A stretch of 64,000 nt of DNA, taken from assembly GCF_009914755.1 (NCBI RefSeq), contig NC_060939.1; one strand, written 5' to 3'. The notes beneath the pieces were generated by a model. The model made no database searches. It was not told where the DNA came from and saw only the letters and a list, made by a program, of their open reading frames with translations. This DNA is from the human T2T-CHM13v2.0 reference genome, Homo sapiens. Both the position numbers and the translations under genes were made by a program. This document shows, in pieces, positions 42,418 to 48,623 of the stretch (its first letter is position 1; each line of letters starts with the position of its first letter).

Positions 42418-42431
42418 AAAGATGGGAACAA
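42418..42431 (+). repeat. 5' copy of the L1HS target-site duplication AAAGATGGGAACAA (3' copy at 48117-48130)
   Basis: Perfect 14-bp direct repeat; minus-strand nick site CTTT/AT fits the degenerate L1 EN motif TTTT/AA. Confidence 0.93.
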
Positions 42432-42570
42432 CCCTTCCGCCGCCTGTGAAGGGACCCACCGAGCTCCCAGGGCCTTTCTGCTGCTTCCTCTACCCCTGTA
42501 TTTTGCTCGGCTCTGTAACTTGACTCAGCTTCAGAGAGTGGTTAAAAATTCTCAACAAGAAAAAGCTGTG
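42432..42570 (+). other. 139-nt 5'-transduced (non-L1HS) leader
   Basis: Lies between the 5' TSD and L1 nt 1; belongs neither to the interrupted old L1 3' UTR nor to the L1HS consensus. Confidence 0.88.
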
Positions 42571-42951
42571 GAGGGAGGAGCCAAGATGGCCGAATAGGAA
42601 CAGCTCCGGTCTACAGCTCCCAGCGTGAGCGACGCAGAAGACGGTGATTTCTGCATTTCCATCTGAGCTTTGAAGAGAGCAGTGGTTCTCCCAGCACGCA
42701 GCTGGAGATCTGAGAACGGGCAGACTGCCTCCTCAAGTGGGTCCCTGACTCCTGACCCCCGAGCAGCCTAACTGGGAGGCACCCCCCAGCAGGGGCACAC
42801 TGACACCTCACACGGCAGGGTATTCCAACAGACCTGCAGCTGAGGGTCCTGTCTGTTAGAAGGAAAACTAACAACCAGAAAGGACATCTACACCGAAAAC
42901 CCATCTGTACATCACCATCATCAAAGACCAAAAGTAGATAAAACCACAAAG

Positions 42952-43968
42952 ATGGGGAAAAAACAGAACAGAAAAACTGGAAACTCTAAAACGCAGAGCG
43001 CCTCTCCTCCTCCAAAGGAACGCAGTTCCTCACCAGCAACAGAACAAAGCTGGATGGAGAATGATTTTGACGAGCTGAGAGAAGAAGGCTTCAGACGATC
43101 AAATTACTCTGAGCTACGGGAGGACATTCAAACCAAAGGCAAAGAAGTTGAAAACTTTGAAAAAAATTTAGAAGAATGTATAACTAGAATAACCAATACA
43201 GAGAAGTGCTTAAAGGAGCTGATGGAGCTGAAAACCAAGGCTCGAGAACTACGTGAAGAATGCAGAAGCCTCAGGAGCCGATGCGATCAACTGGAAGAAA
43301 GGGTATCAGCAATGGAAGATGAAATGAATGAAATGAAGCGAGAAGGGAAGTTTAGAGAAAAAAGAATAAAAAGAAATGAGCAAAGCCTCCAAGAAATATG
43401 GGACTATGTGAAAAGACCAAATCTACGTCTGATTGGTGTACCTGAAAGTGATGTGGAGAATGGAACCAAGTTGGAAAACACTCTGCAGGATATTATCCAG
43501 GAGAACTTCCCCAATCTAGCAAGGCAGGCCAACGTTCAGATTCAGGAAATACAGAGAACACCACAAAGATACTCCTCGAGAAGAGCAACTCCAAGACACA
43601 TAATTGTCAGATTCACCAAAGTTGAAATGAAGGAAAAAATGTTAAGGGCAGCCAGAGAGAAAGGTCGGGTTACCCTCAAAGGAAAGCCCATCAGACTAAC
43701 AGCGGATCTCTCGGCAGAAACCCTACAAGCCAGAAGAGAGTGGGGGCCAATATTCAACATTCTTAAAGAAAAGAATTTTCAACCCAGAATTTCATATCCA
43801 GCCAAACTAAGCTTCATAAGTGAAGGAGAAATAAAATACTTTATAGACAAGCAAATGTTGAGAGATTTTGTCACCACCAGGCCTGCCCTAAAAGAGCTCC
43901 TGAAGGAAGCGCTAAACATGGAAAGGAACAACCGGTACCAGCCACTGCAAAATCATGCCAAAATGTAA
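42952..43968 (+). CDS. L1 ORF1p (338 aa; coiled coil, RRM, CTD)
   Basis: Canonical MGKKQNRKTG start; REKG, ARR and YPAKLS motifs intact. Confidence 0.98.
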   Translation: MGKKQNRKTGNSKTQSASPPPKERSSSPATEQSWMENDFDELREEGFRRSNYSELREDIQTKGKEVENFEKNLEECITRITNTEKCLKELMELKTKARELREECRSLRSRCDQLEERVSAMEDEMNEMKREGKFREKRIKRNEQSLQEIWDYVKRPNLRLIGVPESDVENGTKLENTLQDIIQENFPNLARQANVQIQEIQRTPQRYSSRRATPRHIIVRFTKVEMKEKMLRAAREKGRVTLKGKPIRLTADLSAETLQARREWGPIFNILKEKNFQPRISYPAKLSFISEGEIKYFIDKQMLRDFVTTRPALKELLKEALNMERNNRYQPLQNHAKM

Positions 43969-47859: not shown

Positions 47860-48085
47860 ACAATGAGATCACATGGACACAGGAAGGGGAATATCACACT
47901 CTGGGGACTGTGGTGGGGTCGGGGGAGGGGGGAGGGATAGCATTGGGAGATATACCTAATGCTAGATGACACATTAGTGGGTGCAGCGCACCAGCATGGC
48001 ACATGTATACATATGTAACTAACCTGCACAATGTGCACATGTACCCTAAAACTTAGAGTATAATAAAAAAAAAAAAAAAAATTCT

Positions 48086-48121
<36 letters not shown>

Positions 48122-48623
48122 TGGGAACAAAAGACACTAGAGGGCAGACAGAGGGATGGGGGGAAGGGCTGAAAAACTGCATACTGCGTACTATGCTCAA
48201 TACCTGGGTGACAAGATCAATCATACCACAAACCTCGGCAACACACAATACACCCAAGTAACAAACATGCATATGTACCCCTGAATCTAAAAGTTGAATT
48301 TTTTAATGCAGATTCATAAACAAACACCATTCTAAATCTAAATCCATCTCTAAAAGTGTTGTCTAGGAATATATCTGAGAAGCTAACATTCCTAAACCCC
48401 TTAAATATAGGAAACTATTTTAAGGAGTCTGAAGAATTGATGTTTATTCTCTCAATTAAAAAAAATATCACCACTAACCAAACTGGGATTATACTAATAG
48501 TCCTCCAGCTTGCTTCTTTTTACATATTTTGACATCTTGGCATGTCACATATATGTAAATATGGACAATTTGCACATTCCAAATAATAATTTACAATTTC
48601 CTACAACTAGAGAAAACAATGTA

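What the first reader, a model, noticed from the sequence alone, without database searches (positions are those of the whole stretch)
42432..42534. Transduced leader looks like a spliced exon from the antisense strand of an ancient L1PB-type 5' UTR
Seen: 42432-42534 is GC-rich (..TTCCTCTACCCCTGTATTTTGCTCGGCTCT..TTGACTCAGCTTCAG), then composition switches abruptly to A-rich AGAGTGGTTAAAAA. From memory, the antisense L1PBa-type 5' UTR consensus reads ..TGACTCAGCTCCAG|GTAAGG, a strong splice donor exactly where the similarity stops. Inference: an old L1's antisense promoter drove exon 1, which spliced to an acceptor 36 nt upstream of the source L1HS, and a second splice followed (97/622). A dead L1 would then be promoting mobilisation of a young one through a three-exon RNA.
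Basis: inference. Interest (0 to 1): 0.8.

Follow-up and report, generated by a model that had tools for sequence, protein, structure and literature searches.

The report
Spliced chrX leader on young L1
A young L1 retrotransposon copy in a UACA intron carries at its front a spliced piece of an X-chromosome non-coding RNA that begins inside an ancient dead L1 read backwards; the insertion and its X-chromosome origin are already catalogued in print, so this mostly adds detail.

Summary

- **Exon 1:** window 42432-42534 (103 nt) is 100% identical to one place, chrX 33340515-33340617 (+), where GTAAAG follows it. That place is the antisense strand of the 5' UTR of an old minus-strand L1 of L1PB1 type. 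The GT donor is kept in 25 of 26 family copies.
- **Second block:** the next 24 nt match chrX 33435857-33435880 (+), 95,239 nt downstream, right after an AG.
- **Source L1:** CHM13 has no L1 at that site. A 15-nt duplication-like stretch starts at a TTTTT/AA site, and its first bases recur inside the insertion's poly(A). Both point to a non-reference source L1 there.
- **Unexplained:** 11-12 nt before the L1 start have no source.
- **L1 body:** it has the 97/622 junction and both ORFs are open.

**Already in print:**
- The element is SpIRE(97/622)-104 in Larson 2018, annotated there without a transduction.
- Law 2026 Table S5 lists it as a 5' transduction from the chrX lncRNA ENSG00000233928.
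- CAGE start sites at the antisense 5' end of L1PB1 are also reported.

**New here:**
- The first exon is an L1PB1 antisense exon.
- The source site is fixed.
- Two published annotations are corrected.

Low to moderate interest.

The parts
42418..42431 (+). 5' target-site duplication of the chr15 insertion (AAAGATGGGAACAA), inside the 3' end of an older L1
   Evidence: Same 14 nt at 48117-48130. The flanks overlap by 12 nt in 5 of 7 intact old-L1 copies. Law 2026 Table S5 gives the same duplication.
42432..42534 (+). Transduced exon 1: 103 nt from chrX 33340515-33340617 (+), the antisense strand of an L1PB1-type 5' UTR
   Evidence: 100% over 103 nt. Followed by gtaaag at the source. Position in the old L1. 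L1PB1 label by eye.
42535..42543 (+). First 9 nt after the cryptic acceptor (chrX 33435857-33435865)
   Evidence: Exact match, preceded by cccctag on chrX.
42544..42558 (+). Inferred 5' target-site duplication of the chrX source L1 (AAAAATTCTCAACAA; chrX 33435866-33435880)
   Evidence: The chrX match ends at 42558. The stretch starts at a TTTTT/AA site on the bottom strand. Its first bases recur at 48077-48088 (family D12).
42559..42570 (+). 11-12 nt of unknown origin between the chrX match and the L1 5' end
   Evidence: No source found. Law Table S5 places 8 of them 9.8 kb downstream, a match at chance level.
42571..42667 (+). L1 5' UTR positions 1-97 (start uncertain by 1 nt)
   Evidence: 100% to many young L1 5' ends. 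A full-length copy has GT right after position 97.
42668..42951 (+). L1 5' UTR from position 622 on, joined directly to position 97 (SpIRE 97/622 junction)
   Evidence: The 25-mer after the junction lies at L1 position 622 of L038, preceded by AG. Listed as SpIRE(97/622)-104 by Larson 2018.
42952..43968 (+). L1 ORF1, open, 338 aa
44032..47859 (+). L1 ORF2, open, 1275 aa
48062..48081 (+). AATAAA signal and a first run of 17 A
48082..48088 (+). TTCTCAA inside the poly(A): inferred micro 3' transduction from the source element's 3' duplication
   Evidence: AAAAATTCTCAA is shared with 42544-42555 (D12). It ends about 20 nt after the AATAAA.
48089..48116 (+). Second A run: the poly(A) tail of the retrotransposed RNA
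48117..48130 (+). 3' target-site duplication of the chr15 insertion

Best explanation
The insertion is a reverse-transcribed copy of a spliced read-through RNA made on chrX.

1. Transcription ran on the plus strand through the antisense side of the 5' UTR of a dead L1PB1-type element. The cDNA's 5' end is chrX 33340515.
2. The element's ancestral donor (CAG|GTAAAG, after 33340617) was spliced across 95,239 nt to a cryptic AG acceptor before 33435857.
3. A young L1 (L1Hs in both catalogues) that is absent from CHM13 sat 24 nt further on, in the same orientation. It was flanked by a 15-nt duplication and carried 11-12 extra bases at its 5' junction.
4. The RNA continued into that L1. It lacks L1 positions 98-621, either through a second splice in the same RNA or because the source already lacked them.
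5. It was cleaved and polyadenylated about 20 nt after the L1's AATAAA, inside the source's 3' duplication.
6. L1 proteins then inserted it by target-primed reverse transcription into an older L1 in a UACA intron.

**Shown:** the map of every block, the GT and AG, the empty site, the 97/622 junction and the duplication on chr15.

**Inferred:** the presence and exact structure of the source L1, initiation inside the old L1, and the order of the splices.
For: - **Exon 1:** 103/103 identity to a single chrX locus, followed by GT.
- **Second block:** 24/24 identity 95 kb downstream on the same strand, after cccctag, and the only such site in the genome.
- **Source site:**
  - The match stops 15 nt after a TTTTT/AA site.
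  - The first 12 nt of that stretch recur in the interrupted poly(A). The model predicts one place for the interrupting 5-mer, so the chance of this is about 0.001.
- **Old L1:**
  - ORF1 and ORF2 remnants lie on the minus strand below the exon.
  - The family's similarity ends at 33340901-33340905 in 4 of 6 copies.
  - The donor GT is present in 25 of 26 copies.
- **No upstream exon:** the two bases before the leader's start on chrX are GC, not AG.
- **Literature:**
  - CAGE start sites in L1PB1 and L1PBa1 lie mainly at the antisense 5' end (PMC5932608, passage).
  - Law 2026 independently maps the leader to an exon of the lncRNA ENSG00000233928 (Table S5).
  - The same paper describes the same architecture for RAP1GDS1, with a cryptic acceptor 15 bp upstream of an intronic L1 (section read).
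Against: - The source L1 has not been seen. It is absent from CHM13 and, by Law's block coordinates, from hg38.
- 11-12 nt have no source.
- The leader's 5' end could be a truncation point of reverse transcription rather than a start site.
- It lies in a C-rich 37-nt segment that is not collinear with other copies. There the chrX copy is about 140-160 nt shorter than 5 of 5 comparable copies. Any promoter may therefore be specific to this copy rather than a property of the family.
- Table S5 exon coordinates appear clipped to the aligned part: the two RAP1GDS1 rows differ. They do not show that the annotated start coincides with the leader's 5' end.
- No RNA data were available here.
Confidence: 0.8

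Rival explanations
1. Same route, but the chrX source was already a SpIRE 97/622 with a dead promoter and depended on the upstream lncRNA promoter. Only one splice (exon 1 to the cryptic acceptor) then occurred in the mobilised RNA.
For: Law 2026 documents exactly this for an L1PA2 SpIRE in RAP1GDS1 (section 14 read). Larson 2018 hypothesises that the 97/622 deletion, which removes five known transcription-factor sites, cuts promoter activity; the section heading says it does (passage).
Against: No SpIRE copy in CHM13 is identical over 181 nt across the junction. Only the window itself reaches 100% among the 40 scored of 852 candidates, and no hit lies near chrX 33.4 Mb. Nothing here separates the two orders of events.
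Confidence: 0.35
2. The old L1 supplies only the exon and its donor. Transcription began further upstream, and reverse transcription stopped at 42432.
For: L1 cDNAs are often 5'-truncated. There is no extra G at the 5' junction. One study found that L1PA8 chimeras start upstream of the UTR (PMC9396940, passage).
Against: Start sites at the antisense 5' end of L1PB1 are reported. Law states that 15 of the 17 leaders map to transcript starts. The bases before the leader's start on chrX are not an acceptor.
Confidence: 0.2
3. The leader and the L1 were joined in trans, by trans-splicing or template switching between the lncRNA and an L1 RNA from another locus.
For: Law 2026 raises trans-splicing for cases where no source L1 is found, and notes long downstream introns (section 13 read).
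Against: It explains none of three things: the 24 nt after a cryptic AG, the end of the match 15 nt after an endonuclease-type site, or the recurrence of that stretch in the poly(A).
Confidence: 0.05
4. The leader has three chrX exons, the third being 8 nt at hg38 chrX:33847570-33847577, as listed in Law Table S5.
For: The 8-mer is there, preceded by AG.
Against: - Two 8-mer matches to the 12 nt occur in 19,821 nt, and about 1.5 are expected by chance.
- Three bases stay unaligned.
- No GT follows the 24-nt block on chrX.
Confidence: 0.04
5. The 139 nt are ordinary chr15 flank and the duplication is 6 nt, as annotated in Larson 2018.
For: Larson's supplementary table: TSD 6, transduction 'No', 5 untemplated.
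Against: The flanks on both sides are one older L1 with a 12-nt overlap in 5 of 7 intact copies. The 103 nt are 100% chrX.
Confidence: 0.01

Closest known systems
RAP1GDS1/L1PA2 co-opted-promoter 5' transductions (Law et al., Cell Genomics 2026, PMC13174262)
   Same: - Upstream exons are spliced to a cryptic acceptor a few bases upstream of an intronic L1.
- The whole RNA is retrotransposed with one duplication.
- The L1 has the 97/622-type deletion.
- This very chr15 insertion is one of the 17 rows of their Table S5.
   Different: - Here the promoter-side exon is the antisense 5' UTR of a dead L1PB1, not a gene's first exon.
- The source L1 is absent from the reference genomes.
- The paper's main text does not contain 'antisense promoter' and does not discuss this row.
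SpIRE 97/622 (Larson et al., PLoS Biol 2018, PMC5860796)
   Same: An exact 97/622 junction; the element is their clone 104.
   Different: They list no transduction and a 6-nt duplication. The leader and the 12-14-nt duplication were missed.
L1 antisense-promoter chimeric transcripts (Speek 2001, cited in the passages read; PMC9396940)
   Same: Antisense transcription out of an L1 5' UTR, spliced from a donor in the UTR to downstream exons.
   Different: The canonical antisense promoter is described for L1PA1 to L1PA6-8. This UTR shows no similarity to the L1HS UTR, so it is not that promoter by descent.
L1PB1/L1PBa1 antisense start sites in CAGE data (PMC5932608)
   Same: Initiation at the antisense 5' end of L1PB-type elements.
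   Different: That is a family-wide statistic seen in one passage only. The chrX copy starts in a rearranged segment specific to this copy.

Membership tests
L1-mediated 5' transduction (one TPRT event) | A target-site duplication encloses leader plus L1 plus poly(A) | tested here: met
   AAAGATGGGAACAA on both sides. 12-nt overlap of the flanks in 5 of 7 intact copies of the target L1.
L1-mediated 5' transduction (one TPRT event) | The leader maps directly upstream of the source L1 | tested here: inconclusive
   24 nt map to an empty site in CHM13. The source is inferred from the duplication logic and the poly(A) interruption, not seen.
Spliced leader | GT after block 1 and AG before block 2, same chromosome, strand and order | tested here: met
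   CAG|gtaaag; cccctag|AGAGTGG; both on chrX plus strand, 95,239 nt apart.
SpIRE 97/622 | L1 position 97 joined to 622, with GT..AG in unspliced copies | tested here: met
   against L038
L1PB-type 5' UTR, antisense strand | Lies between the L1 5' end and ORF1 of an element on the opposite strand | tested here: met
   ORF1 hits run 33339585 down to 33338666 on the minus strand. The family's similarity ends at about 33340905.
L1PB-type 5' UTR, antisense strand | Sequence similarity to an L1PB1-labelled 5' UTR | tested here: met
   By eye only: collinear over about 245 nt, and 33 of 34 across the donor, with the L1 part of the CREM row, which the paper says starts at L1PB1 position 89.
L1PB-type 5' UTR, antisense strand | Dfam or RepeatMasker subfamily call | not testable with these tools
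   No repeat library was on hand. Supporting only: copies are 81-86% alike pairwise over 1.3 kb, and L1PB3-L1PB1 are said to have a unique UTR (PMC9252281, passage).
Canonical L1PA antisense promoter | Homology to the L1HS 5' UTR | tested here: not met
   Sensitive blastn of the old element against a full-length young L1 aligns only the ORF1 region.
Canonical L1PA antisense promoter | Mapped transcription start in the UTR | not testable with these tools
   No CAGE or RNA data. Only the cDNA 5' end and the lncRNA exon cited in Table S5.

The most novel reading that the evidence does not exclude
The antisense 5' UTR of L1PB1-type elements, unrelated in sequence to the L1PA UTR, is an independently evolved start-plus-donor module; the donor is kept in 25 of 26 copies. 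Dead copies of such modules recurrently supply transcription to younger L1s downstream, including promoter-less spliced ones, so extinct L1 lineages help living ones move. Two of the 17 published 5' transductions begin in an L1 antisense exon: this one and the SATB1-AS1 row.
Probability: 0.25. Interest if true: 0.55.

Novelty: already known. Interest (0 to 1): 0.3.

Why it matters
- It shows how a young L1 can be expressed and copied from a foreign promoter, here one embedded in a dead L1.
- That route could let copies without their own promoter stay mobile, and it leaves a traceable leader.
- For this locus the work corrects the SpIRE catalogue entry: there is a transduction and a 12-14-nt duplication.
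- It questions the third mapped block in Law's table.
- It names the first exon as an L1PB1 antisense exon.
- It predicts a non-reference source L1 at a defined chrX position upstream of DMD, which can be looked up in pangenome assemblies.

Tried and rejected
- **36-nt tail as one block:** only the window itself matches.
- **The 12 nt:**
  - 12 nt plus the L1 start is unique in CHM13.
  - No k-mer longer than 8 occurs in 19.8 kb of chrX around and beyond the acceptor.
  - Nothing matches in the L1 body or the window beyond 8-10-mers.
- **Sibling insertions with the same leader:** none among the 40 scored hits.
- **SpIRE relatives identical across the junction:** none.
- **Homology of the old UTR to the L1HS UTR:** none.
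- **3' flank against the young L1's own 3' end:** no blastn hit. Replaced by a comparison with intact old copies.
  - No Dfam or RepeatMasker, no RNA-seq or CAGE, no gene table for chrX, no other human or primate assemblies.
- **Literature:**
  - L1PB + antisense promoter + chimeric transcripts returned 2 papers. One was opened at its single L1PB passage and found irrelevant; the other was seen only as a listing.
  - Two further searches found no paper describing this leader as an L1 antisense exon.
  - ENSG00000233928 returned 4 papers; one passage was read, and it names RP11-305F18.1 upstream of DMD.
  - The supplementary PDF figures of Law et al. were not held and may say more.

Full report
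**What is in the window**

The inserted DNA runs from 42432 to about 48116. AAAGATGGGAACAA lies on both sides, at 42418-42431 and 48117-48130. Both flanks belong to one older L1 3' end. In 5 of 7 uninterrupted copies of that old family the 5' flank and the 3' flank map with a 12-nt overlap; in the other two the alignments did not reach the ends. The 139-nt leader is therefore part of the insertion.

The L1 body has an open ORF1 (338 aa) and an open ORF2 (1275 aa). Its 5' UTR joins position 97 to position 622. A full-length young copy (L038) has GT after 97 and AG before 622.

**Where the leader comes from**

A search of the window's own genome (T2T-CHM13) with the 139 nt gave a 100% match for bases 1-103 at chrX 33340515-33340617, plus strand. 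The other hits scored (40 of 738 candidates) are 86-95% identical and mostly cover bases 20-103, so the piece belongs to a repeat family with one exact source. At the source the 103 nt are followed by gtaaag.

The 36-nt remainder occurs only in the window at up to 2 mismatches, with reversed-pattern control 0. A 24-nt pattern at up to 3 mismatches found one near-exact place, chrX 33435858-33435881, plus strand. Reading that locus shows 24 identical bases at 33435857-33435880, directly after cccctag. A TTAAC lies about 28 nt upstream and a pyrimidine-rich run lies between. After the 24 bases chrX continues with unrelated sequence and no L1. The two blocks are 95,239 nt apart, in order, on one strand.

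**The source L1 is inferred, not seen**

- The last 15 matching bases (AAAAATTCTCAACAA) begin at a TTTTT/AA site on the bottom strand, which is the usual L1 endonuclease target (recalled knowledge).
- The insertion's tail is AATAAA, then a run of 17 A that includes the signal's last three, then TTCTC, then 33 A.
- AAAAATTCTCAA is thus shared between the leader and the tail (family D12).
- The simplest reading is a source L1 sitting right after chrX 33435880, with that 15-nt duplication and a short A tail. Its RNA was cleaved about 20 nt past the AATAAA, inside the 3' duplication.
- CHM13 holds the empty allele.

The 11-12 bases between the match and the L1 start have no source:
- With the L1 start attached they are unique in the genome.
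- They are absent as anything longer than an 8-mer from 19.8 kb of chrX.
- They are absent from the L1 body.

**What the 103 nt are**

Protein searches with the window's own ORF1 and ORF2 find an old L1 on the minus strand just below the exon:
- ORF1 residues 19-326 from 33339585 down to 33338666.
- ORF2 remnants further down, at 35-60% identity.

Six other copies are collinear with chrX from about 33339130 upward. In 4 of the 6 the similarity ends at 33340901-33340905, which marks the L1 5' end. The exon is therefore the antisense of positions about 289-391 of a UTR of about 1.27 kb.

That UTR shows no similarity to the L1HS UTR; only the ORF1 region aligns. Copies are 81-86% alike over 1.3 kb. 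A passage in PMC9252281 says that L1PA14-L1HS share a similar UTR and that L1PB3-L1PB1 have a unique one.

A direct but by-eye test supports the L1PB1 label. Law et al. state that the L1 part of their CREM row starts at L1PB1 position 89. The sequence printed in that row is collinear with the reverse complement of the chrX locus over about 245 nt. It matches 33 of 34 bases across the donor, which places the donor near L1PB1 position 300.

The GT is present in 25 of 26 family copies. CAG|GTAAAG is exact in 13, and GTAAGG occurs in 5.

**The start of the leader**

The two bases before the leader on chrX are GC, not AG, so the 5' end is a start site or a truncation point, not an acceptor.

The 5' end lies in a C-rich 37-nt segment (33340497-33340533) that does not align with other copies. 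There the chrX copy is about 140-160 nt shorter than 5 of 5 comparable copies.

A passage in PMC5932608 reports that CAGE start sites in L1PB1 and L1PBa1 lie mainly at the antisense 5' end. Passages in PMC9396940 describe the canonical antisense promoter only for L1PA1 to L1PA6-8. Initiation inside the old L1 is thus plausible and has precedent, but it is not shown here and may owe something to this copy's rearrangement.

**What is already in print**

Larson et al. 2018 (PMC5860796; passages and supplementary tables searched):
- The element is listed as SpIRE(97/622)-104, hg38 chr15:70729597, in UACA, opposite orientation.
- It is given a 6-nt duplication, transduction 'No' and 5 untemplated bases.
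- Searches show that annotation is wrong.

Law et al. 2026 (PMC13174262; sections 13 and 14 and all 17 rows of Table S5 read, long cells cut):
- The element is listed with the 14-nt duplication and a 138-nt non-L1 part.
- That part is assigned to the lncRNA ENSG00000233928, transcript ENST00000832416.1.
- It is mapped to hg38 chrX:33742418-33742520, 33837748-33837771 and 33847570-33847577.
- The first two blocks are the ones found here.
- The third is an 8-mer. It is one of two such matches in 19.8 kb where about 1.5 are expected, it leaves three bases unaligned, and no GT follows block 2. I regard it as chance.
- The row has no note and no donor coordinate.
- The main text has 0 occurrences of 'antisense promoter' and does not discuss this row.
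- The exon coordinates in the table seem clipped to the aligned part, because the two RAP1GDS1 rows differ. They do not prove that the annotated start equals the leader's start.
- The paper's RAP1GDS1 case has the same architecture, with a cryptic acceptor 15 bp upstream of an intronic SpIRE. This raises the rival that the chrX source was itself already spliced.

PMC7909759 names the lncRNA RP11-305F18.1 and says it is the only one annotated in the 676 kb upstream of DMD (passage).

**Verdict**

Three points remain inference:
- that both splices occurred in one RNA;
- that the old L1 was the promoter;
- the exact make-up of the last 11-12 bases.

The kind of event and this very locus are published, so novelty is low.
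- the L1PB1-antisense identity of the first exon, with a family-wide conserved donor;
- the position and duplication of a non-reference source L1;
- the micro 3' transduction;
- two corrections to published tables.

I found no paper stating the L1-antisense origin of this leader. The PDF supplements of Law et al. were not available to me.

Noticed in passing
window 42418-42570 and 48117-48130: Larson 2018 annotates this element (SpIRE(97/622)-104) with a 6-nt duplication, no transduction and 5 untemplated bases. The real duplication is 12-14 nt, and the 139-nt leader belongs to the insertion.
   Followed up: yes
Law 2026 Table S5, SATB1-AS1 row; L038:1845-1887 minus strand: The first 43 nt of that other published leader match the antisense strand of a young L1 5' UTR at 42 of 43 positions by eye, and GT follows there. 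At least 2 of the 17 published 5' transductions therefore begin in an L1 antisense exon. The paper's main text never mentions an antisense promoter.
   Followed up: partly
L002:1483-1519 (chrX 33340497-33340533): The chrX L1PB1-type copy is about 140-160 nt shorter than 5 of 5 comparable copies exactly where the leader starts. The remaining 37 nt are C-rich and not collinear with the family. This may be a copy-specific change that made or moved the start site.
   Followed up: partly
L042:5002-5009 (chrX 33445680-33445687): The third 'mapped' block in Law's table is an 8-mer preceded by AG. It fits the leader only if three bases are skipped, and it is no better than chance in 20 kb.
   Followed up: yes
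L011:1500-1545 (chrX 33435857-33435902): On the empty allele the cryptic acceptor is followed 43 nt later by GTATGA, so a small natural exon could exist there. No chrX gene table was available to check this.
   Followed up: no
window 42750-42767: The L1's 5' UTR carries a variant. No other 97/622 copy in CHM13 matches at 100% over 181 nt across the junction, so no close SpIRE relative is visible in this genome.
   Followed up: partly
L015/L016 (chrX 33331001-33351000): The 20 kb around the exon is a patchwork of at least four further old L1 fragments on both strands. The L1PB1-type element itself lacks most of ORF2: residues 7-51 are followed directly by 1007-1275.
   Followed up: no
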